Below, piece after piece: positions 1-58,689 of a stretch of 58,689 nucleotides of DNA. A program made the position numbers and the translations under genes. The DNA lies in the IMG/VR virus record IMGVR_UViG_3300002855_000236, positions 1 to 58,689 of that record; one strand, given 5' to 3'. The DNA is from a virus. Lineage: Duplodnaviria > Caudoviricetes. Below the pieces are notes generated by a model, which was not told the DNA's origin, did not search any database, and saw nothing but the letters and a program-made list of their open reading frames with translations. Within the stretch, counting starts at the first letter, position 1, and each line of letters begins with the position of its first letter.

Positions 1-738
1 ATGCTCGGCACGGGCAGCGCCTTCGCCAAAGCCTTCCATAACAACAACGCGCTGATCACGGTAGGAGAACGCCGTCTGCTGCTCGACTGCGGGATTACCG
101 CGCCCAAAGCGCTTCACGAGCTCGGCTACGGCTTTAACGACCTGCACGCCGTGCTGATCACCCATATCCACGCCGACCATATCGGCGGCCTGGAAGAGTT
201 CGCTTTCCAGATGAAGTTCGTATACGGCCGCAAGCCGATTCTCTATATCGCCGAATCGCTCGTCCAACCGCTGTGGGAGTATTCGCTCCGAGGCGGGCTG
301 CAGCAGGACGAGAAGGAAACGCTGAACGACTTCTTCGAGGTTCGCCCGCTTCCGAGCGGCGTTCGCGCCGAGCTGATGCCCGGATTGGAAGTGGAACCCG
401 TACCGACGCGCCATATCCCGAACAAACCGAACTTCTCGATGCTGTTCAACGGCTTCTTTTTCTACACGGGGGATACCGTATTCGATGCCGACTTGCTCTC
501 GTCTCTCGTCGAGGACAGGGGCGTCCGGGTGATTTTCCACGATTGCCAGCTTCACCCTCCCGGCGCCGTGCACGCGTGCCTGCCCCAGTTACTGACGTTG
601 CCGGACTCCTTGCAGGAGAAAATCTATCTGATGCATTACGGGGACGATCAACCCGATTTCGTCGGGCGCTCCGGTAAAATGCGTTTCGTCGAGCAAGGCC
701 GAACGTACGAGGTCGAAAGGTTAACTTCCGGTGGATAA
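1..738 (+). CDS. Host MBL-fold metallo-hydrolase (RNase Z / phosphodiesterase-like); possibly 5'-truncated by the window
   Basis: LGTGSAF N-terminus, THIHADH metal motif, YTGDT and MHYGD motifs; host-like high GC. Confidence 0.85.
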   Translation: MLGTGSAFAKAFHNNNALITVGERRLLLDCGITAPKALHELGYGFNDLHAVLITHIHADHIGGLEEFAFQMKFVYGRKPILYIAESLVQPLWEYSLRGGLQQDEKETLNDFFEVRPLPSGVRAELMPGLEVEPVPTRHIPNKPNFSMLFNGFFFYTGDTVFDADLLSSLVEDRGVRVIFHDCQLHPPGAVHACLPQLLTLPDSLQEKIYLMHYGDDQPDFVGRSGKMRFVEQGRTYEVERLTSGG

Positions 739-1400: not shown

Positions 1401-1476
1401 GATCTGATAGCTCAGCTGGGAGAGCACCATCTTGACAGGGTGGGGGTCACAGGTTCGATCCCTGTTCAGATCACCA
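1401..1476 (+). tRNA. tRNA-Val(GAC); probable prophage attachment site
   Basis: 76-nt cloverleaf, anticodon loop TTGACAG, GGTTCGATCC T-arm, CCA end. Confidence 0.97.
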
Positions 1477-25439: not shown

Positions 25440-25633
25440 TGAATTAGAATGGTTGGCCATTGTTCACAATAGGATCTTACGGAAATCAAAAGCCTAATAG
25501 CATATGCCACGCGTACTTACCATGCAAAAAGAATTTATCGTTTATGTACTCTTTAAATTTCTATGATTCGACAATTTATGTAAATCTATAGTAGAATGTT
25601 GACGTGTCGGTAAATCTCTGCGAGGTGTGTTCA

Positions 25634-26512
25634 ATGTCAATTAATTCATTACAATCAACTATCAATCGCTTGCAAGGCGAAATCGCTGATCTATACAAGA
25701 AAATAAGCAATGAAAAGAAAAAAGAAGCTGATGCAACGACCAAAATCATAAGGGCGCAGCAATCAATTGCAAAATCAAGCTCACAAGCCACAATTAGAAG
25801 TAAGCTCTCTGAAATAGATCGCAACAACAACGACGTGGCGCGATCGAGCAAAAATCAAGCGGACTTACAGAGAAAAGTGGCTGATAAAAGCAAGGATTTG
25901 ATTCGATACCAGCAGCAACTATCAAAAGCAATTGAAACTGAAAATAAAAAGCAGCTAGAAGCACAGAGGAATATGGAACAAAGACTACTCGCTTCCCAAC
26001 AAGATTTGGCCAAGGAACTTGAGGATCAAAAGGGGCTGATTCGCGAAGGCGGATTGGTCTCTTCAAGACTGGCATCCACTGCATCTGCAGAGGATTATGC
26101 AGAACCAGAATATGATGTTTTTATTTCGCATGCCAGTGAAGATAAAGACGACTTCGTTCGTCCTCTCGCTGAAGAACTTGTAGGGATTGGCGTTAAAGTT
26201 TGGTACGACGAACATTCAATGCGATGGGGCGATAGCTTAAGACAATCGATCGACAAGGGTTTGGCAAATTCCAGGTTTGGGATCATTGTAATATCAACTC
26301 ACTTCGTTAACAAACCTTGGCCAGCTTATGAATTGGACGGTTTGATTGCAAGAGAAATTGAAGGGGGAAAGGTTGTACTACCCATTTGGCATAAAGTTTC
26401 TAAGAGCGAAGTTATGAAGTTTAGTCCGACGATGGCTAATAAGATTGCTTTGAACTCTTCGATTGATGAGATAAGTGATATTGCCAAGCAATTAAAGGAA
26501 ATGCTACAGTAG
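25634..26512 (+). CDS. Coiled-coil plus TIR-domain protein (TirS/TcpC-like, probable NADase)
   Basis: YDVFISHASEDK, VWYDE, WPAYELDGL (catalytic Glu position), VLPIWH; GAGGTG RBS at ATG 25634. Confidence 0.9.
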   Translation: MSINSLQSTINRLQGEIADLYKKISNEKKKEADATTKIIRAQQSIAKSSSQATIRSKLSEIDRNNNDVARSSKNQADLQRKVADKSKDLIRYQQQLSKAIETENKKQLEAQRNMEQRLLASQQDLAKELEDQKGLIREGGLVSSRLASTASAEDYAEPEYDVFISHASEDKDDFVRPLAEELVGIGVKVWYDEHSMRWGDSLRQSIDKGLANSRFGIIVISTHFVNKPWPAYELDGLIAREIEGGKVVLPIWHKVSKSEVMKFSPTMANKIALNSSIDEISDIAKQLKEMLQ

Positions 26513-45977: not shown

Positions 45978-47840
45978 TTACACTTCCACCCCCTTGTTTA
46001 CCTTCCCGCGGCGTTTGGCAACAGGTTTCTTGATTGGCACCGAGTTGCTTCCCGCGCCTTCTGCTTCTTCGCGCATCCGCTGGAGTGTCGCGAGCGTCGG
46101 TTCCCCGCCCATGATCTCGAGCGCGGCCGTGGCGTAATTCCGGCAGTCGAGTGCTTCATTTCGGGATCCGGCGATCCTCAGTTCCCAATGATAAACGGCC
46201 CGCCCCTTCACCATGCGTCTCACACGATGCTCAGAAGTTATCTGGTGGAAATAGTCCTCCTCGTATCCGGCGTCCTGCTTCATAGGGAAATGGCAATAGC
46301 CCGGCTTGTCCTCGAAACGGACGGCCAGGCGCGATGATAGAGTATCCTTACCGACGTCGACCCCGATGATAAACAGCCAAGCGCCCTCGTCGTTCCGCTT
46401 TTTAGGGCGGGTAATAAACGGGATGCCCGAGCCGCCTCTGCCTTTGATCGCCCATACTCGTCGCGCCTCTCTCTTCTTGCATGCGGTATAAACCTCTTTC
46501 GTATTATGGCCGCCGGAGTCGACGCACGTCGTCATCACCTGCAACTGCTGACCGTCAGCTCGTCGGAAAGTGTTGGTGATGACCTGCGTATCTAGCATTT
46601 CCCATACGTAATTCTGGCCCGGGTCGCCCATGATGACGCCGTATCGGACACCCCATGACTTCGCATCAGGCCCCCATCCGACGACCTCGTACTCGAGCCG
46701 GTTACCTTGGACGTCTACGCCACACGTGAGCAGCAGGACGTCGTTCGGCACCTCGGCGGCGTATTGCTCCCGGCGCTTTATCAAGTCGTCGGCATCGACG
46801 CCCGTCCCCTTCTCTTCCCACGTTTCCCCCAGAGACGTATTAATCCAGACCTTCAGCTTCTCGGGGCCGCCACGCTCGGCCGTTACGAAATCTTCGACGA
46901 TCTCATTCCAACGTTTCCAAGGGCTCGCGAGCTCGTTCAGGTGAAAACCTCGAACCTTCTTATTCTGCACGCGGGCTACCCATTCACCGGTGCCCGATTT
47001 CCATTCGCGCTCGCTATGCATAGCACCGCAATACTTGCAGGCCATGGAAACAGCAGTACATTTCCTTCGTTCTTTGTCATACTCGAATTTCACTTGGGGC
47101 CAAGACAGCGGTTGTCGTTCCGCGCAACTGGGGCAAGGAAGGCACCATTGTTCTTGGCTACTTTCCTCGTAATACTCATCAATACTGGATGAACCTTTGA
47201 TCGTCGGCGTGCTCGCCAGGATTCGTTTTCTATTCCAGAATGTTGTTGTTCGCTTGGTTGCAAGTTCGACCGGATCGCCTTCTGTTCCGGCAGATACCGG
47301 AAAACGATCAACCTCATCTGCAATCAGTATCCTGATTGGACGACTCGCCAACGAAGCAGGCGAGTTTGCACCTGCCAAAGTAACATGTCCACCAGGGAAT
47401 GTTTTGTGAAGCAGTGTATTTCCGCCGTCACGGGATTTAGTCCGTATTCGCTCATTAAGTGCTGGCGTATCACGAATCATCGGTGAGAGTCGATCTTTCG
47501 AATAGGCCTCTGCCATATCGAGCGTCGGCTGCAGAAACATTACCGGCGCAGGATCCTGATGGACATGGAAACCGAGGATATTCGACAGTATCGCCGTTTT
47601 CCCGATTTGTGCGCTCGTCTTGAAAATTGCGGTGTCTGTTTCTGGGTCGCAGATAGCATCCATCATCTCACGCTGGTACGGCGCCCTGTCTGTCCGCCAT
47701 CTACCGGGCTCCGATGAGTCTTCCGGCGATAACCTGCGATATTCGTCAGCCCATCCGGAAACTTTTAGGACCGGCGGCGGAGCGACGACTGCTGCGAGAC
47801 TTCGGAAAAGTTGAATCGTTCGGGCTTTAGGTTTGCCCAT
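45978..47840 (-). CDS. Terminase large subunit (lambda gpA family)
   Basis: SAQIGKT, DEVDR, STPT, CPSC, GVDVQ, DSGG, NEALD. Confidence 0.96.
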   Translation of the reverse strand: MGKPKARTIQLFRSLAAVVAPPPVLKVSGWADEYRRLSPEDSSEPGRWRTDRAPYQREMMDAICDPETDTAIFKTSAQIGKTAILSNILGFHVHQDPAPVMFLQPTLDMAEAYSKDRLSPMIRDTPALNERIRTKSRDGGNTLLHKTFPGGHVTLAGANSPASLASRPIRILIADEVDRFPVSAGTEGDPVELATKRTTTFWNRKRILASTPTIKGSSSIDEYYEESSQEQWCLPCPSCAERQPLSWPQVKFEYDKERRKCTAVSMACKYCGAMHSEREWKSGTGEWVARVQNKKVRGFHLNELASPWKRWNEIVEDFVTAERGGPEKLKVWINTSLGETWEEKGTGVDADDLIKRREQYAAEVPNDVLLLTCGVDVQGNRLEYEVVGWGPDAKSWGVRYGVIMGDPGQNYVWEMLDTQVITNTFRRADGQQLQVMTTCVDSGGHNTKEVYTACKKREARRVWAIKGRGGSGIPFITRPKKRNDEGAWLFIIGVDVGKDTLSSRLAVRFEDKPGYCHFPMKQDAGYEEDYFHQITSEHRVRRMVKGRAVYHWELRIAGSRNEALDCRNYATAALEIMGGEPTLATLQRMREEAEGAGSNSVPIKKPVAKRRGKVNKGVEV

Positions 47841-48366
47841 CTATATCAACCCCTGCTTCTGCTCCTTCCCGGAAAAGCTCCGGATCGTAATCGGCGAGTT
47901 CTGCCAAAGCTTCATGCAAATCCTTGGTCAATTGAGCCTTGATGATGTTTATGTCGTCGATACCGGCTATCTGCGGTGAAAGTTTAGTCGGAATGGAAAG
48001 GATCTTCTGCCGGAATGCGGTGATCATGTCCGACATGACAGCCTCGACGTCTTCCGCAGAGTGCAATTCACCACGCAACTGCGATAGTTGAAGCGCAGCT
48101 CGTTCCGTCTTAATCCGTTCATGTTCCGTCTTATGGTCGATATACCTCGGCTTCGAGTCTTCCTTGCCTCCCGCAGCGTGCTCTACGTAGGCCTGAATCG
48201 CCTCTCCAAGGATGTATTTTCCGCGACTGACTTGAGTCAGCACGTTATCCGTAGTCAATTGACGTATCCAGCGAGGTGTTTTTCCGATAATTTGGGCCAA
48301 TTCGCCGCCCATGACTTCCATATCGCTCAAAAGAGGCTTCGCTTCCGCTTTTTTTCTTGCCATCAC
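47827..48366 (-). CDS. Terminase small subunit (Nu1-like)
   Basis: N-terminal wHTH (LAQIIGKTPRWIRQL) plus coiled coil. Confidence 0.88.
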   Translation of the reverse strand: MMARKKAEAKPLLSDMEVMGGELAQIIGKTPRWIRQLTTDNVLTQVSRGKYILGEAIQAYVEHAAGGKEDSKPRYIDHKTEHERIKTERAALQLSQLRGELHSAEDVEAVMSDMITAFRQKILSIPTKLSPQIAGIDDINIIKAQLTKDLHEALAELADYDPELFREGAEAGVDIDGQT

Positions 48367-49249: not shown

Positions 49250-49323
49250 TACCTCCGTAGTATGAATTAACTGCATATAAAAAAAGCCGCTCTCTTGAAC
49301 GACTTTTTCTCGCAATCTCTGAC

Positions 49324-49491
49324 CATATATATAGATCTTATCTTTAAAGTTATCTTTAAATATCTTTCTTAGTCCCCTAAATGGGGGACACCTCCGTCCC
49401 CTAATTGGGGGACACCCCGTCCCCTAAATGGGGGACACCCCCCGTCCCCTAAATGGGGGACACCCTAACCGTCCCCTAAATGGGGGACACC
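49324..49491. repeat. Five 21-bp palindromic repeats GTCCCCTAA(A/T)TGGGGGACACC plus AT-rich TATCTTT repeats; origin-like
   Basis: Copies at 49372, 49396, 49419, 49444 and 49471; AT tract 49324-49371. Confidence 0.85.
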
Positions 49492-49576
49492 CCCTCGAAA
49501 ATGGAGCTCTTTATCAGCAGGGAAGATATGCGTAAAAGTGCAAATATAAATCAATGAAAAAGGCGCCTTCAGGCGC

Positions 49577-49813
49577 CTATACAGCAGTTAAGTAATTAAT
49601 TCCCTTGCCTGATATCCTTACTGCCAATGTTGTGTTGTTCTGGGCTACACTCTTCAAAAAATCATAGTCAATCAAGAAGTAATAGTCCAATACGCTACTG
49701 CCAATATGGGACAGATCGATCGTTACAACAGCTCGACCATGCATGTGAGCTTCATAGACCGTTTTCAAGATCTTTGATCTTTTTTCGTTTAAGACAAGTT
49801 CATCCAACATCAA
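49577..49813 (-). CDS. Small wHTH-like protein with own promoter and terminator
   Basis: TTGGCG-17-TATGAT upstream; ISGKGINY; hairpin at 49557-49578. Confidence 0.6.
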   Translation of the reverse strand: MMLDELVLNEKRSKILKTVYEAHMHGRAVVTIDLSHIGSSVLDYYFLIDYDFLKSVAQNNTTLAVRISGKGINYLTAV

Positions 49814-49890
49814 ATATCACCCCCATCGACATCATACATCAACTTCCATAATTCGCCAATGTATTTTAGGGACGCCGGAACCATCGGGCC

Positions 49891-50241
49891 TTACCAAGGA
49901 ATTTCTTCGAACGACTGGCTTTTAGCTACCGCGCCGATGATGTCCGCGATCTGGAATTGTTCGCCTTCGACGGTGAACGTTCTCGAATAAGGATCGACTC
50001 TATCGACGACGCCGATCACCGCCAAATCTTCATATTTATGATAAAGCTGAAATTCGGCCGTCACCCTCATCCCCAGTGACTCCATGAGCACGCGCATGAT
50101 CTGCTCTTTTTCCTGCTCGTCCAGCACCGGCCGCTCGCCGCGGAATTTGTCTCGATGATGGAAATGCGACTGCAACGCCGAATCGTGTTCCGGAATTATG
50201 AACTTCGATTTCCAACGCTCGTTGCCACCCAGATTAAACAT
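49891..50241 (-). CDS. YolD-like protein (start ATG 50241)
   Basis: RWKSK.IIPEH, RPVLDEQE; GAGGGTG RBS. Confidence 0.85.
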   Translation of the reverse strand: MFNLGGNERWKSKFIIPEHDSALQSHFHHRDKFRGERPVLDEQEKEQIMRVLMESLGMRVTAEFQLYHKYEDLAVIGVVDRVDPYSRTFTVEGEQFQIADIIGAVAKSQSFEEIPW

Positions 50242-50282
50242 AACAGGATCACCCTCAAATAATTTGGTGTTCCCATTATACG

Positions 50283-50296
50283 CGAACACTCGTTCT
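50283..50296. promoter_or_regulatory. LexA (DinR) SOS box at yolD promoter
   Basis: CGAACACTCGTTCT matches GAAC-N4-GTTC; adjacent minus-strand TATAAT. Confidence 0.8.
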
Positions 50297-50321
50297 TATA
50301 TCCAATCTTATTTTTCGATAC

Positions 50322-51185
50322 ATCGAAGCCTTCAACCGGCGCATAGCCAGAAACACGTATCAGGTGTTCCCCTTTGCGCGACTGCCTCCCAGTTGGCCCG
50401 GTTGAAGGCTTCGATCTATGAGCGGGCGAGGAGGCCCGCTCTCTTCAAACACGGCCATTTGCTGACGCAGGCCGCAAGCGCTGCCGATCCAGACCTTATC
50501 GCTTGGCATCAACGCGTAAAGGTCTCCTTCGTACCCGTCGGCTTTCCCCGCCGGAGGTCCATGCCATCGAAGGATGTTGGGGAGGTCTGGAGTGTCAAAA
50601 TTGAGGAATAAGCAGTGTTTACCGGACCAGGGTTCCGACCCCTGTCGCATACCAGAACGCCCCTAACGGACGTGGCGGGATTCGAACCCGCTCTCTCGTG
50701 TCTATTCCCACCCAGTGGGCAATCCGGCATATGGAGCGGACGGCGGGATTCGAACCCGACGTAATCGGCTTGGAAGGCCGAGGCATTGCCTTTATGCTAC
50801 GTCCGCATAGTGGTCGGCGCCGAACACCTTGGAGTTGCCGCCGACCTACTTGACTCTTTGTGCGTCGCTCATCTTTTCCGCCCTTAACTCCCTCCTATGG
50901 GAAGGGTAGGTTTGACTTAGAGCCTTGGACTTTTGCACGCACGATATTGTTTGTGGGCCGCGGGCCACTCTCCCGCGGATGGCAATCCTCAAAATGCCGC
51001 TTGTTTGACGCGATCTCTACGTTCCGTCTCTCTTCCGGCACCCACGACAATACATTGACGATTTACATAAGAGCTCGGAAAACCGCCGTCGGAGCTTTCA
51101 CCGCAATAGAAAAAGCCGACCTATTGGCCGGCTCGATCGACGAGGCGTTCACGCCCCGCGGTGTCCTCTGTGCGATTTCCTGATG
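50322..51185 (-). ncRNA. Candidate large structured ncRNA or ncRNA array containing tRNA-Gly
   Basis: No credible ORF; consecutive long stems; tRNA-shaped modules; upstream extended -10. Confidence 0.55.
50732..50806 (-). tRNA. tRNA-Gly(TCC) with 1-nt T-stem bulge
   Basis: GCGGACG/CGTCCGC acceptor, CTTCCAA anticodon loop, TTCGAAT T-loop, TCCA end. Confidence 0.88.
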
Positions 51186-51190
51186 ATATA

Positions 51191-51199
51191 AATATACCA
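51191..51199 (-). promoter_or_regulatory. Extended -10 (TGGTATATT) without a good -35; probable activator-dependent late promoter
   Basis: Faces ncRNA region and packaging genes; hairpin plus T tract at 51110-51133. Confidence 0.5.
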
Positions 51200-51262
51200 T
51201 GGTCCAAGTCCAATAACACATAATACGATTTCAAAATTCACTCATAATTACCGCACGAAGAA

Positions 51263-52366
51263 TCAAGATGTAGTGACCAATAATTGGAATACATAATTCC
51301 CCACTACACCTGCTATTACACTAGTAACAAAACTGATAATAAATTTCCAAAGCCCCTTATTAGATTCTCTTTTAATAGATTCTTTATATTTTAATGACTC
51401 CTCTGTTAAACACAAAAAGGAGGATTGTATTTGTATATCATCTATCATGAGATCGAATATTACACCGATAAAAATCGCTATTGTTGCTGAGGCAATCAGA
51501 ACAACAGTGATAAATTGATTAAAACTCAACCATTCACCCGCAGCAATATATTGTGAAATGAAATTTACTTTATCATCTAATGAAGACGATGAGGAAATTC
51601 CATCATTAACTTTGCTCAAAGAATAATCCGCAAATTTACTAGTAGTGAGTATACATCCAACAATCGATATCAATAAAAACAATATACCTCCGAAAATAGA
51701 TACACTATTTTTATATTTTGACAATAAACTGATAAATGTCCTTTTAGACTCATCCATACAACTTTTAACTTGGAGAGTCAATAACGAGTCAATGTCATTC
51801 CCCCATGATCTAGCGGTGTGATTAATTATATGCATAATCCGTCCTGGTTCATTTTTAAATCTGATGATATTCCTTTTGTCGTTAAGAAACGACATTTTAT
51901 TATTTGAGTAATGATCAGAAATAATTATTAACTCTATTTCTTGTTTCTCAGGGAATTCTCTGTCAGCGAATTTGACTAAGTATGACCAATAAACATTGAT
52001 ACTGGTGGAAATAACTTTACGCAACTCATTGTATGTTTTAAATTCTTCAAGGGAGCTCATTGTAACTGAAGAATCATCATCGTAAGAAATTTTAACAGTA
52101 AATTGAACTAGTTCTGCTACATTCTGTTGTTTTATTCTCTGTTCCAATAAATGATAAATGTTAATGATATCATTTTTATGTATCTCAAATGACCCATAAA
52201 AACTTCGGGAAAGTTCTTGCGGCTTTCCAAGTAAACTTGATATAAAATCTTTAAATCCCTCCTGATTAAGAGGAAGACTTACAAACCCTTGCTTTACTGA
52301 AGCATCTGGTTCAATGTCAATAATGATATTTTGATGACTTGTTTTTTGAATCGTCAAATTAATCAC
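51263..52366 (-). CDS. AT-rich membrane protein (soluble N-domain plus ~3 TM), unknown function
   Basis: AAGGTGA RBS; hydrophobic C-terminal helices; low GC. Confidence 0.75.
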   Translation of the reverse strand: MINLTIQKTSHQNIIIDIEPDASVKQGFVSLPLNQEGFKDFISSLLGKPQELSRSFYGSFEIHKNDIINIYHLLEQRIKQQNVAELVQFTVKISYDDDSSVTMSSLEEFKTYNELRKVISTSINVYWSYLVKFADREFPEKQEIELIIISDHYSNNKMSFLNDKRNIIRFKNEPGRIMHIINHTARSWGNDIDSLLTLQVKSCMDESKRTFISLLSKYKNSVSIFGGILFLLISIVGCILTTSKFADYSLSKVNDGISSSSSLDDKVNFISQYIAAGEWLSFNQFITVVLIASATIAIFIGVIFDLMIDDIQIQSSFLCLTEESLKYKESIKRESNKGLWKFIISFVTSVIAGVVGNYVFQLLVTTS

Positions 52367-52463
52367 CTTTTCGATTTATTAATACATTTCCACCCATAAT
52401 AATCCATCACCTTCCAATCGTAAAGATAATAATTACATATCATATCGATATTCATGTTATGAG

Positions 52464-57465: not shown

Positions 57466-58689
57466 GTGACCGTTATTAAGGATAAGACACTTAAGACTAA
57501 TCCTTGGTATTTCGTAATTGAAACCGGCGAAGGTAAGGACAGAAAGAGAATAAAGCGCAGGGGATTTAAGCGAAAGCAGGATGCGGAAGAAGCTGAGAGA
57601 ACACTTCGAAGTGAACTCAAGCTGGGGCTGAACATAGATGCTTCCAAAACAGTATACCGCGATTACATGGCCGATTATCTAAAAGACAAAAAAACGCGTG
57701 TTAAGGGGCGAACCCTTGATACTTATGAAAGCATGGTTAACAATCATATTTTGCCTGTGCGGAAAAATAGCGATGGGAAAGATGTGGGCTTAGGTGACCT
57801 GACCTTGGCTGAAATTACTCCTAGACATATTCAGAATCTTTATAATCACCTCCAAGAATCAGGATCTCTATCTGGAGAGAATATCCAAAAGGTTCATACA
57901 CTTATCAATGAGTCATTGGAGAAGGCGGCTGGCTGGGACATGATAATTAAAAACCCCGCTGCCGTTGTTGATCGCCCGAAAGCAGAAACTAAAGAAATGC
58001 TCTATTGGAATGAAGAAGAATCCCACAAATTTTTAGAGGCAGCTAAAACGGATCGATATTACCACGCCTTTCTTTTGGCATTAACCACTGGAATGAGGCA
58101 AGGTGAAATACTCGGATTAAGCTGGGCCGACGTCGATACTAAACGCAGGACCATATCTGTAAGACAAACTCTGGATCATTATGGCAAGCAGATTGATCAA
58201 GGCACAAAGACGATTTCAGGTATGCGTTCGATCGGTATCGACAAAACAACCGCGGCAGAACTGGACGCCCTAAAGCATCGTTTTAATGAAGAGAGAATGG
58301 CAAACAAAGATATTTACAATGAAAAGTTCCAACTCGTCATAAGCACTAAACTAGGCTCTCCATTGTCCCCGAGGAATCTTAATCGATCCTTTGAAAGGAT
58401 AGTCAATAAGATCAATGATGCTATTGCTGAAGGTGAAGACAAACTAAAGAAGATCAGATTCCATGATCTTCGTCATACTCATGTTGTTATGCTCCTGAAG
58501 TTGAGGGAGAACAACAAAAGGATCGCTGAGCGCATGGGATGGTCAAGCGTTAAGATGTTAGATCGCTATTCGCACATAACAGCTCATATGCAACAGGAAA
58601 CTGCTGACGCTTTCGGGGAAATGTTCTTCTCGAAACAGGAGGAAACGGAGGGGAAATTGGTGCCGAAATTGGTGCCGGAAGCTAAATAA
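57466..58689 (+). CDS. int: Tyrosine integrase with N-terminal arm-binding domain
   Basis: RRGFKRK, TGMRQGE, FHDLRHTH, MGWSS, RYSH. Confidence 0.96.
   Translation: MTVIKDKTLKTNPWYFVIETGEGKDRKRIKRRGFKRKQDAEEAERTLRSELKLGLNIDASKTVYRDYMADYLKDKKTRVKGRTLDTYESMVNNHILPVRKNSDGKDVGLGDLTLAEITPRHIQNLYNHLQESGSLSGENIQKVHTLINESLEKAAGWDMIIKNPAAVVDRPKAETKEMLYWNEEESHKFLEAAKTDRYYHAFLLALTTGMRQGEILGLSWADVDTKRRTISVRQTLDHYGKQIDQGTKTISGMRSIGIDKTTAAELDALKHRFNEERMANKDIYNEKFQLVISTKLGSPLSPRNLNRSFERIVNKINDAIAEGEDKLKKIRFHDLRHTHVVMLLKLRENNKRIAERMGWSSVKMLDRYSHITAHMQQETADAFGEMFFSKQEETEGKLVPKLVPEAK
58658..58676 (+). repeat. Two TGGTGCC arm-type repeats within the integrase 3' end
   Basis: Encode KLVPKLVP; same motif as 1569-1626. 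Confidence 0.8.

What the first reader, a model, noticed from the sequence alone, without database searches (positions are those of the whole stretch)
50620..50728. tRNA mimic whose anticodon arm is replaced by a domain with a second T-loop
Seen on the minus strand, 3 nt after the tRNA-Gly CCA: acceptor stem GCCGGAT/GTCCGGT plus A, D-like arm CCCAC-TGG-GTGGG, and T-like arm CAGGG-GTCGGAA-CCCTG. Where the anticodon arm should be there is a perfect T-arm GCGGG-TTCGAAT-CCCGC (50675-50691) and a hairpin ACGTCC-GTTA-GGGGCGT. There is no anticodon and no encoded CCA. Inference: a non-decoding tRNA mimic (cf. tmRNA TLD, bacterial Y RNAs) with two elbow-like surfaces.
Basis: partly seen in the sequence, partly recalled or inferred. 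Interest (0 to 1): 0.72.

Follow-up and report, generated by a model that had tools for sequence, protein, structure and literature searches.

The report
Orphan tRNA-shaped insert beside phage tRNA-Gly
A 109-base stretch just after a prophage's glycine tRNA gene can fold into a tRNA-like outline built around a copied tRNA arm, but it is an insert seen only in this phage, so it is either a small non-decoding tRNA look-alike of the kind phages T4 and T5 carry or recombination debris.

Summary
ARAGORN and Rfam do not call the stretch. Its fold is no better than shuffles (z -1.28), and a loose version of the same outline turns up about 1.75 times per shuffled window. What is not chance: it abuts a tRNA, its centre is an exact 16-nt copy of the neighbouring T arm, and its closing stem pairs the two ends of a ~112-nt insert.

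The five homologous tRNA-Gly prophage loci I found all lack the insert. In G213 the shared flank follows the tRNA's CCA directly. No homologue appeared in any collection searched, so covariation cannot be tested.

The surrounding ~970 nt is a mosaic of swappable non-coding RNA modules ahead of the packaging genes. The prophage with the closest terminase carries, at the same place, a member of a large family of anticodon-less tRNA look-alikes that includes phage T5 RNA1. This scan had already noted that family on other DNA. The insert fails that family's model.

Best reading (0.42): a lineage-specific, non-decoding tRNA-shaped RNA cassette processed along with the tRNA. Main rival (0.35): inert tRNA-derived debris. 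"Two elbows" is unsupported.

The parts
50620..50728 (-). The 109-nt tRNA-shaped element (the finding). With the TAT before it, it forms a ~112-nt insert relative to related prophages.
   Evidence: Sequence; fold; indel boundaries; only self-match with its own covariance model R1 (142.9 bits).
50722..50728 (-). 5' strand of the 7-bp closing (acceptor-like) stem. It pairs with 50621-50627; 50620 is an unpaired A.
   Evidence: 7 pairs, 2 of them G-U. The stem joins the two ends of the insert.
50707..50719 (-). D-like hairpin: 5 bp with a 3-nt loop (not a canonical D loop).
50675..50691 (-). Inner perfect T arm GCGGG-TTCGAAT-CCCGC. With its flanks (50700-50667) this is the only part with significant likeness to tRNAs.
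   Evidence: 16-nt exact repeat of the tRNA-Gly T arm. 28 of 34 identical to the host tRNA-Asp 3' part. Local score 38 against a null maximum of 25 over 198 tRNAs.
50657..50673 (-). 6-bp hairpin that uses the tRNA-3'-strand-like ACGTCC. It sits where a class II variable arm would sit.
   Evidence: Model R1 aligns end to end with the T4 class II tRNA-Leu and tRNA-Ser (19.6 and 16.2 bits).
50628..50644 (-). Outer T-like hairpin CAGGG-GTCGGAA-CCCTG, abutting the 3' strand of the closing stem.
   Evidence: No significant likeness to any tRNA (part 63-109: score 20 against a null mean of 19.2).
50732..50806 (-). Phage-type tRNA-Gly(UCC) with encoded CCA, 3 nt upstream of the element.
   Evidence: Homologues in G309, G001, G240 (= L146), G213 and G300.
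51090..51225 (-). Module P: promoter-like site (51212-51183) plus intrinsic terminator (51134-51113). A widespread conserved element at the head of the non-coding region.
   Evidence: 74-97% identical copies in many Paenibacillaceae genomes.
50950..51047 (-). Module A: a weak tRNA-like element (closing stem, TG linker, CCGG..CGG arm, 7-bp/7-nt hairpin abutting the 3' strand), conserved in G309 and G213.
   Evidence: Family model R2 gives 13.8 bits, E 0.007 in 2 kb. Hairpin stems change on both sides between window, G309 and G213 (alignment, sequence).
50317..50619 (-). Downstream non-coding modules D1 (50619-50561), D2 (50515-50447) and D3 (50442-50317). D3 is a ~95-nt motif with a covarying outer stem.
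   Evidence: No Rfam match.

Best explanation
The 109 nt are a discrete, lineage-specific RNA cassette. It is a non-decoding, tRNA-shaped module, built partly from a copied tRNA T arm and 3' strand. It has been inserted directly behind a phage tRNA-Gly, within a ~970-nt mosaic of small RNA modules that precedes the packaging genes.

Inferred mechanism (none of it shown):
1. Transcription from the promoter-like site at 51212-51183 reads through the terminator at 51134-51113 and runs through module A, tRNA-Gly, this element and modules D1-D3 towards the YolD-like gene and terS/terL.
2. The closing stem stacked on the abutting hairpin gives a tRNA-like acceptor/T helix.
3. RNase P cuts at the element's 5' end, which also trims the tRNA-Gly trailer to 3 nt. 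RNase Z or a similar activity cuts after the unpaired A.
4. This releases a stable ~109-nt RNA. It works in the way plant mitochondrial t-elements and the stable RNAs next to T4 and T5 tRNAs do.

Whether the released RNA has a job of its own is open.
For: Shown:
(1) The element starts 3 nt after the CCA of a bona fide tRNA on the same strand.
(2) It is a precise indel. In G213 the tRNA's CCA is followed at once by the sequence that in the window follows the element. G309 and G240 also lack it, while flanks on both sides align.
(3) Its 7-bp closing stem pairs the insert's own two ends. My rough estimate of the chance of that is under 1 in 100.
(4) All 28 predicted pairs are standard or G-U.
(5) The region is modular. 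Modules P, A, B, tRNA, D1, D2 and D3 are each shared with different subsets of Cohnella/Paenibacillus prophages.
(6) Module A is itself weakly tRNA-like and conserved.
(7) The prophage with the closest TerL (62%, G003) carries a 121-nt anticodon-less tRNA look-alike 3.2 kb upstream of TerL. The element here lies 2.8 kb upstream.
Of 118 unique members, 104 have 7 of 7 closing pairs, with 85 different stem sequences. T5 RNA1 scores 32.2 bits on the family model.
(9) 4 of 118 family members have an internal canonical T-arm hairpin in their variable core, against 0.225 expected; 1 of 1000 shuffles reached 4.
(10) T4 and T5 records annotate 106-144-nt stable RNAs of unknown function directly beside tRNAs.

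Inferred: transcription, processing and stability.
Against: No homologue was found anywhere I searched.
- BLAST over 54 genomes of the genus of G309 found only the 34-nt tRNA-like centre.
- Its own model R1 over the same 54 genomes gave a best E of 0.15.
- R1 over 43 held sources found only itself.
- 50,697 phage records matched only T-arm pieces, at most 35% coverage.
- Exact patterns found nothing: 2 scans of viral contigs and 1 of metagenomes.
- The 401-genome Paenibacillaceae BLAST that included the element listed no match over it among the 150 rows shown; 296 further rows were not shown.

Other points against:
- All 5 homologous tRNA-Gly loci lack it.
- The fold is not better than shuffles (z -1.28) and is not recovered when 556 nt are folded together.
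- The same loose outline arises 1.75 times per shuffled window.
- The outer loops lack the tRNA elbow consensus.
- The outer 5' and 3' parts have no tRNA likeness.
- It fails the T5-RNA1-like family model.
- No promoter was predicted between the terminator and the tRNA.
Confidence: 0.42

Rival explanations
1. Inert debris. The insert is a chimeric leftover of recombination among tRNA or tRNA-like genes, for example illegitimate exchange at the shared T-loop sequence. It is too young to have decayed and has no selected role. Its stems are partly inherited from a tRNA fragment and partly chance in G+C-rich sequence.
For: - Only the centre (50700-50667) resembles tRNAs. It matches the variable loop, T arm and 3' acceptor strand of tRNA-Asp (28 of 34) and the neighbouring tRNA-Gly T arm (16 of 16, then CGTCCG after a 2-nt indel).
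- It is absent from all 5 homologous loci and from every collection searched.
- Fold z is -1.28, and the outline is common in shuffles.
- The spacer behind this tRNA varies widely in length between relatives, from a few tens of bases in G240 to about 160 in the window.
Against: - The insert's two ends pair over 7 bp, and a hairpin abuts the 3' strand in tRNA register, which random debris need not do.
- No helix carries a mismatch.
- Phage genomes keep little junk, and the neighbouring modules are conserved RNAs.
Confidence: 0.35
2. Integration scar or small mobile element. Either it is a displaced tRNA 3' end (an att remnant) left by an integrase-driven element that once sat in the phage's tRNA-Gly, or it is a MITE-like element with terminal inverted repeats.
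For: - There is a direct repeat of the tRNA 3' portion 68 nt downstream on the same strand.
- The ends of the insert are inverted repeats.
- The insertion point is exactly at a tRNA 3' end.
Against: - The repeated tRNA fragment is not followed by the tRNA's native flank, which instead follows the whole insert.
- The only integrase found among the 36 larger reading frames I scanned against Pfam lies about 7 kb away at the window's end.
- No second copy of the element occurs in the window, in 54 genomes of the genus of G309, or among the rows shown for 401 family genomes. A mobile repeat should recur.
Confidence: 0.1
3. An aberrant decoding class II tRNA. The inner TTCGAAT loop would serve as an anticodon loop (anticodon CGA, serine) and the next hairpin as the long variable arm.
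For: - The loop has T at the second position and A at the sixth, as anticodon loops do.
- The element's own model R1 aligns end to end with the T4 class II tRNA-Leu and tRNA-Ser (19.6 and 16.2 bits).
Against: - There are 15 and 12 extra bases where tRNAs have about 1 each.
- ARAGORN gave no call even with relaxed thresholds or intron search, and there was no Rfam tRNA match at E<=10.
- The loop and stem are an exact copy of a T arm.
Confidence: 0.03
4. No RNA-level meaning at all. It is plain spacer whose stems are chance, or part of a protein-coding frame (the 73-codon ORF 50730-50509 on the minus strand).
For: Shuffles fold as well. The descriptor finds 1.75 such outlines per shuffled window. 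An ATG-initiated ORF does span the stretch.
Against: - The exact T-arm copy and the position next to a tRNA are not chance.
- The ORF has no PHROG family.
- The ORF runs on into modules that differ between relatives by indels not divisible by three.
Confidence: 0.1

Closest known systems
T5 RNA1-type anticodon-less tRNA look-alikes. T5 gene rna1 is annotated 'tRNA-like stable RNA with unknown functions'. The family was recovered here from G003, Leuconostoc, Weissella and Listeria phages and at least 120 viral contigs.
   Same: - Phage-borne and 109-160 nt long.
- 7-bp closing stem followed by TG, then a hairpin.
- A large non-tRNA core where the anticodon arm should be.
- A hairpin with a 7-nt loop abutting the 3' strand; none of the members I read continues into CCA after the closing stem.
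- Sits beside tRNAs and upstream of packaging genes.
- 4 of 118 members also hold an internal T arm.
   Different: The family has an invariant D arm (GGCGGAATAGGTAGACGC) and T arm (AAGGTGCAAATCCTT). The element has neither. The family model R2 gives no match to it at E<=10 in 2 kb with filters off. Its local likeness to the two shells is no better than shuffles (400 and 661 of 2000 shuffles score as well).
Phage T4 species 1 and species 2 RNAs (rnaC, rnaD)
   Same: Small stable RNAs of 139 and 119 nt of unknown function, encoded head to tail directly after a tRNA. rnaD starts 1 nt after tRNA-Arg in the T4 record. rnaC has a T-arm-like hairpin near its 3' end (R1 positions 37-54, 12 bits).
   Different: No sequence likeness. 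Their tRNA-like processing is recalled from older literature that I did not read here. They sit in a lytic phage's tRNA cluster, not in a late-operon leader of a temperate phage.
Plant mitochondrial t-elements (Forner et al. 2007, PMC1920247; abstract read)
   Same: tRNA-like structures inside longer transcripts that do not decode. They are proposed as cut signals for RNase P and RNase Z, defining RNA ends. This is the mechanism I infer here.
   Different: Different kingdom and no homology. Processing has not been tested for the element.
tmRNA tRNA-like domain and bacterial Y RNA-like YrlA
   Same: Non-decoding RNAs that keep a T arm and an acceptor-like helix.
   Different: - tmRNA: no ARAGORN call. 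Permuted-tmRNA model 11.1 bits against a 47-bit cut-off. I did not look for a tag reading frame or pseudoknots.
- YrlA (topology recalled): the ends lie in the stem opposite the acceptor, whereas here the ends form the acceptor-like stem. No YrlA match at E<=10.
Theta (minimal HDV-like) ribozymes next to phage tRNAs (Kienbeck et al. 2024, PMC10879173; passages read)
   Same: A small structured RNA directly associated with a phage tRNA, proposed to process the tRNA 3' trailer.
   Different: No HDV-family Rfam match. A loose search for the nested double pseudoknot in the 130 nt after the tRNA found 0 arrangements.

Membership tests
tRNA (Rfam RF00005; ARAGORN) | Cloverleaf with an anticodon arm, scoring at or above the 29-bit gathering score, or an ARAGORN call | tested here: not met
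   No match at gathering or at E<=10. ARAGORN gave no call, including with -i and relaxed -ps80/-ps70.
tRNA (Rfam RF00005; ARAGORN) | Canonical D loop and T loop able to form the elbow | tested here: not met
   The D-like loop is 3 nt and the outer T-like loop is GUCGGAA. Only the inner hairpin has TTCGAAT. The consensus itself is recalled.
tmRNA (standard or permuted) | tRNA-like domain plus tag reading frame and pseudoknots; a model score over the cut-off | tested here: not met
   ARAGORN found no tmRNA on the window. The only relaxed-threshold (-ps80) tmRNA call lay on the opposite strand and spanned more than the scanned stretch. RF04321 scored 11.1 bits against a 47-bit cut-off, E 5.7.
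T5 RNA1-type anticodon-less tRNA look-alikes (model R2, built here) | 7-bp closing stem, TG linker, and a hairpin abutting the 3' strand | tested here: met
   compared with alignments A5 and A6.
T5 RNA1-type anticodon-less tRNA look-alikes (model R2, built here) | Invariant D arm GGCGGAATAGGTAGACGC and T arm AAGGTGCAAATCCTT; a significant score on the family model | tested here: not met
   R2 with filters off over 49500-51500 gave no match at 50620-50728 at E<=10. As positive controls, T5 RNA1 scored 32.2 bits and the G003 member 89.5 bits. Local alignment to the shells was no better than shuffles: 400 and 661 of 2000.
YrlA / bacterial Y RNA | Permuted topology with the RNA ends in the Ro-binding stem; an Rsr/Ro60 gene nearby | tested here: not met
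   The ends form the acceptor-like stem. No Rfam YrlA match. No Ro-like Pfam family among the 36 ORFs scanned; not all ORFs were scanned.
HDV-like theta ribozyme | Nested double pseudoknot (P1, P2, P3 in the required order) starting at the tRNA trailer | tested here: not met
   0 arrangements by a loose descriptor. No HDV-family match.
tRNA-gene integration scar (att remnant) | Direct repeat of the 3' part of the tRNA gene downstream of the intact gene | tested here: met
   16-nt exact repeat 68 nt downstream; 0 of 100 shuffles with two matches.
tRNA-gene integration scar (att remnant) | The displaced copy is followed by the tRNA's native flank; an integrase or element lies between the repeats | tested here: not met
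   The native flank (as in G213) follows the whole insert, not the repeat. Nothing but 46 nt lies between tRNA and repeat.
t-element-like processing signal | Cleavage by RNase P and RNase Z at the ends of the tRNA-like fold within a longer transcript | not testable with these tools
   No sequencing run was listed for this DNA. This needs RNA end mapping or in vitro assays.

The most novel reading that the evidence does not exclude
The element is a working two-T-loop decoy. It would be a stable, processed RNA whose tRNA-like frame displays a second, perfect T arm. That arm would let it occupy a factor that reads the tRNA elbow or T arm, for example a tRNA-cleaving defence nuclease, RNase P, the CCA-adding enzyme or a T-box leader. 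It would protect or regulate the phage's own tRNA-Gly during late infection. The enrichment of internal T arms in the variable cores of T5-RNA1-like RNAs (4 of 118 against 0.225 expected) would then mark a recurrent design.
Probability: 0.08. Interest if true: 0.7.

Novelty: new variant of a known kind. Interest (0 to 1): 0.36.

Why it matters
If it is real, it adds a sequence-unrelated example to the poorly understood stable tRNA look-alikes that phages keep beside their tRNAs (T4 species 1 and 2, T5 RNA1), and one with a second T arm inside. That could point to what these RNAs bind.

The context may matter more than the element. A ~970-nt leader ahead of the packaging genes is assembled from exchangeable RNA modules: a conserved promoter/terminator unit, a weak tRNA-like module, a tRNA, this insert, and a ~95-nt motif with a covarying stem and no Rfam family. 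This offers a tractable system for asking how temperate phages of Paenibacillaceae use and shuffle small RNAs.

If it is debris, it is an ordinary by-product of recombination at tRNA genes.

Tried and rejected
- Sequencing runs: none was listed for window 49300-52400, and no RNA holder was listed. There is therefore no expression data.
- Close relatives of the phage:
  - The search for related loci with the 367-aa ORF and with the YolD-like ORF found none in viral contigs.
  - TerL as a single protein gave 4 distant viral loci without tRNAs and none in genome contigs.
  - Only a TerL alignment gave loci: 80, of which 1 (L009) had a tRNA-Gly(UCC); 5 others carried some other tRNA.
- Exact-pattern scans for the element: 0 hits in viral contigs and in metagenomes.
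- Other pattern scans: the tRNA-Gly D-arm pattern gave 0 in viral contigs. The D2 pattern gave 1 viral locus, the same prophage as G240, and 0 in metagenomes.
- Theta/HDV-like ribozyme: rejected.
- Known large phage RNAs (ROOL, GOLLD) for the whole leader: no Rfam match at E<=10 over 50100-51350. The 556-nt fold had z = -0.30.
- Membership in the T5-RNA1-like family: rejected.
- Derivation of the outer shell from any of 198 Paenibacillaceae or prophage tRNAs: no score above the null.
- Protein-coding reading of the stretch: rejected.
- The earlier-findings look-up for this genome was empty.
Full report
**What the window is.** The window is a complete IMG/VR provirus record of 58,689 bases. It is a temperate tailed phage of a Firmicute type. 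It encodes a small terminase (47827-48366), a gpA-type large terminase (45978-47840), a lambda-type portal, a ClpP-like protease, capsid protein E, sheath, baseplate J and fibres, all on the minus strand. Replication genes lie further left. An integrase lies at 57466-58689. The nearest named large terminase is that of Paenibacillus phage Lily, at 51%. The non-coding region around the finding is 78% identical over 470 nt to a prophage in genome G309. The genus of G309 also contains G005, whose record is titled Cohnella sp.. I infer that the host is a Cohnella-like member of Paenibacillaceae.

**The observation.** On the minus strand, tRNA-Gly(UCC) with an encoded CCA lies at 50806-50732 (ARAGORN; Rfam tRNA 60.8 bits). 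After three bases (TAT) come the 109 nt at 50728-50620.
- a 7-bp closing stem (2 G-U pairs) plus an unpaired A;
- a 5-bp hairpin with a 3-nt loop, two bases after the 5' strand;
- a perfect T arm at 50691-50675;
- a 6-bp hairpin at 50673-50657;
- a 5-bp hairpin with the 7-nt loop GUCGGAA, abutting the 3' strand.

There is no anticodon arm and no CCA. The standard detectors are silent. ARAGORN makes no call, even with intron search and lowered thresholds. Rfam gives nothing at gathering and nothing meaningful at E<=10; the best is the permuted-tmRNA model at 11.1 bits against a 47-bit cut-off.

**Is it more than chance?** By energy, no. The fold is -45.7 kcal/mol against -41.2 for shuffles, z = -1.28, and 24 of 200 shuffles fold as well. 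In a 556-nt fold the cloverleaf is not recovered. A deliberately loose descriptor of the outline hits 4 places in the real window. These are tRNA-Val, two overlapping registers of this element, and one other site. It hits a mean of 1.75 places per dinucleotide shuffle of the window (40 shuffles). Three things are not chance:
- The 16-mer GGGTTCGAATCCCGCC occurs exactly twice in the window, in the T arm of tRNA-Gly and in the centre of the element. None of 100 shuffles gave two matches. After a 2-nt indel the next six bases (CGTCCG) also repeat the tRNA's 3' acceptor strand.
- The element starts 3 nt after a tRNA.
- It is a clean insert whose two ends pair with each other (see below).

**What the pieces resemble.** I compared the element with 198 distinct tRNA sequences taken from all loci held at that point. 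Only positions 29-62 (50700-50667) score above the null: 38 against a null maximum of 25. These positions equal the variable loop, T arm and 3' acceptor strand of the hosts' tRNA-Asp (28 of 34) and of phage-type tRNA-Gly. The 5' part (1-37) and the 3' part (63-109) score at or below the null. The 'outer shell' is therefore tRNA-shaped but not recognisably tRNA-derived. Its loops (3 nt; GUCGGAA) do not fit the D-loop and T-loop consensus that makes the tRNA elbow (consensus recalled). The element's own covariance model (R1) aligns end to end with the class II tRNA-Leu and tRNA-Ser of T4 (19.6 and 16.2 bits). This shows that the inner T arm and the following hairpin sit where an anticodon arm and a long variable arm would sit. 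However, 15 and 12 extra bases flank them.

**Relatives.** Close relatives of this phage are rare.
- Neighbouring-gene searches and the single-protein TerL search gave nothing useful.
- A TerL alignment retrieved 80 prophage loci from species-representative genomes. One of them (L009, Paenibacillus campinasensis) has a phage-type tRNA-Gly(UCC); 5 others carry some other tRNA.
- BLAST of the non-coding region in 401 Paenibacillaceae genomes then found five homologous tRNA-Gly loci in all: G309, G001 (= L009), G240 (also present in IMG/VR as L146), G213 and G300.

None of these five loci has the element.
- In G309 the match runs from window 51200 to 50731 and stops at the tRNA's last base. Homology resumes downstream.
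- In G213 the tRNA's CCA is followed at once by ACACGCTTATTCC..., which matches the AACACTGCTTATTCC... that in the window follows the element.

So TAT plus the 109 nt is a ~112-nt insertion (or, less simply, a shared deletion) placed exactly at the tRNA's 3' end. The closing stem pairs the insert's own termini.

**Direct searches for the element itself.**
- BLAST in the 54 genomes of the genus of G309 found only the 34-nt tRNA-like centre.
- Model R1 in the same 54 genomes gave a best E of 0.15 per genome, which is noise.
- R1 over 43 held sources found only itself.
- BLAST against 50,697 phage records found only T-arm pieces, at most 35% coverage.
- Three exact-pattern scans found nothing.

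These are samples and exact patterns, so the result is 'not found in those searched', not 'absent'.

**Context.** The element lies in about 970 nt without a convincing gene (50290-51262; G+C about 57%).
- Upstream is a 367-codon ORF with 31% G+C and no family.
- It is followed by a promoter-like site (51212-51183) and a terminator (51134-51113).
- Downstream is a promoter-like site (50304-50275) for a YolD-like gene, then four 23-27-nt repeats (49374-49492), then terS and terL.

A BLAST map against all fetched loci shows that the region is a mosaic. Each module below is shared with a different subset of prophages:

| Module | Window coordinates | Shared with |
|---|---|---|
| P | 51225-51090 | many genomes, 74-97% identity |
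| A | 51128-50952 | G309, G213, partly G050 |
| B | 50952-50810 | G309 only |
| tRNA-Gly | 50806-50732 | G309, G001, G240, G213, G300 |
| D1 | 50619-50561 | G213 |
| D2 | 50515-50447 | G309, G240, G074, G017 |
| D3 | 50442-50317 | G354 (88%), G239, G399, G003, G275, G309, G240 |

- The indels between relatives are not multiples of three, so these modules are non-coding.
- D3 has a 14-bp outer stem whose sequence changes on both strands between genomes, and a conserved core.
- Module A is itself weakly tRNA-like: 13.8 bits on the family model described below. The stem of its abutting hairpin changes on both sides between the window and G309/G213.

**A family that bears on the reading.** In G003, the prophage with the closest TerL (62%), a 121-nt RNA lies right after its D3 copy and 3.2 kb upstream of TerL. 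It has a perfect 7-bp closing stem, a TG linker, a class II-type D arm, 66 unrelated bases, and a 6-bp T arm abutting the 3' strand. ARAGORN and Rfam do not call it.
- Its D arm and T arm recur unchanged in Leuconostoc, Weissella and Listeria phages and in Paenibacillaceae genomes, with different closing stems.
- Of 118 unique members, 104 have 7 of 7 closing pairs, 9 have 6, 4 have 5 and 1 has 2. There are 85 different 5' strands.
- ARAGORN called none of the 30 members I tested, and Rfam assigned no family to any of the 20 I tested. In L194 the 3' end of a ROOL RNA lies directly upstream.
- A model of 40 members (R2) scores T5 RNA1 at 32.2 bits, E 7.6e-7. T5 RNA1 is annotated 'tRNA-like stable RNA with unknown functions' and lies next to RNAI, RNAIII and tRNA-His.
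- T4 likewise has rnaD and rnaC directly after tRNA-Arg.
- Earlier reports of this scan had already noted this family and its link to T5 RNA1 on other DNA. I treated that as a lead and tested it here.
- Four of the 118 members have an internal canonical T-arm hairpin in their variable core, against 0.225 expected. One of 1000 shuffles reached 4.

**Is the element a member?** No. R2 with filters off over 49500-51500 gives no match to 50620-50728 at E<=10. Local alignment to the family's two shells is no better than shuffles (400 and 661 of 2000 score as well), and likeness to module A is marginal (165 of 2000). It shares the architecture and the genomic place, not the sequence.

**Explanation.** I commit, at 0.42, to a discrete, lineage-specific, non-decoding tRNA-shaped cassette that is co-transcribed with tRNA-Gly and released by the tRNA-processing enzymes. 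RNase P would cut at 50728, leaving a 3-nt trailer on the tRNA. An RNase Z-like cut would follow the unpaired A. This is how plant mitochondrial t-elements are proposed to work (Forner et al. 2007, abstract read).
- Shown: the position, the exact indel, the pairing of the insert's ends, the intact helices, the modular context, and the precedent of similar RNAs.
- Inferred: transcription, processing, stability and any role.

The main rival (0.35) is that it is young recombination debris built around a tRNA 3' fragment. The lack of any homologue, the weak fold statistics and the non-canonical loops fit that equally well. The other readings are less likely, for the reasons given with each rival:
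- att scar or MITE-like element: 0.10;
- no RNA-level meaning, or coding: 0.10;
- aberrant tRNA-Ser(CGA): 0.03.

I also tested and rejected a theta (HDV-like) ribozyme, which is known next to gut-phage tRNAs (Kienbeck et al. 2024, passages read).

**Limits.**
- No RNA data could be had.
- Genome searches covered samples of species representatives.
- In one search only 150 of 446 matches were listed.
- The shortened calibration makes E-values from R1 and R2 rough.
- The 4-of-118 count rests on members selected by an exact pattern.
- Literature on T4 species 1 and 2 RNA processing, on RNase P and RNase Z substrate rules, and on YrlA topology is recalled, not read here.
- I read no supplementary files.

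Noticed in passing
window 50317-50442 (minus strand): Module D3 is a ~95-nt conserved RNA motif. It has a 14-bp outer stem whose sequence differs on both strands between genomes (window, G354, G239, G399, G003, G240, and a variant form in G309 and G275) and a conserved core. It has no Rfam match. It sits in prophage leaders, and in G003 it lies directly before the tRNA look-alike.
   Followed up: partly
window 51090-51225 (minus strand): Module P holds a promoter-like site and an intrinsic terminator. Copies 74-97% identical occur in many Paenibacillaceae genomes, some with two copies (G209, G028), with or without the tRNA-Gly behind it. It may be a late-operon promoter with an antitermination site or a short RNA gene.
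   Followed up: partly
window 50950-51047 (minus strand): Module A is a weak tRNA-like fold (13.8 bits on the T5-RNA1-like family model). Its abutting 7-bp hairpin changes on both sides between the window and G309/G213. In G213 it ends about 9 nt before the tRNA-Gly.
   Followed up: partly
L038:2665-2785 (= L090:1354-1474 minus); L186, L187, L188; L189 onwards: A large family of anticodon-less tRNA look-alikes with an invariant class II-type D arm and T arm, a freely covarying 7-bp closing stem and a hypervariable 55-100-nt core. It occurs in at least 120 viral contigs and includes T5 RNA1. ARAGORN and Rfam do not call it. Four of 118 cores hold a canonical T arm. Earlier reports of this scan noted the family on other DNA.
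   Followed up: partly
window 51263-52366 (minus strand): A 367-codon ORF with 31% G+C in a 50-58% G+C phage. It has no Pfam family and only a faint PHROG hit. It lies between an ATP-dependent DNA ligase gene and the RNA-module region and looks like a recently acquired accessory gene.
   Followed up: no
window 49374-49492: Four tandem 23-27-nt repeats (core CCCCTAAATGGGGGACACC) about 1 kb upstream of terS. G003 and G074 have different iterated repeats at the matching place. They may be terminase or regulator binding sites.
   Followed up: no
window 1-738 (+), 1401-1476 (+), 25604-26512 (+): An Apyc1-family (anti-Pycsar) metallo-beta-lactamase-fold gene at the left edge, a tRNA-Val(GAC) beside it, and a TIR-domain gene on the opposite strand between the lysis and replication modules.
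   Followed up: no
L194:1-130: The 3' end of a ROOL RNA (41.7 bits, cut off by the locus end) lies directly upstream of a member of the tRNA look-alike family.
   Followed up: no
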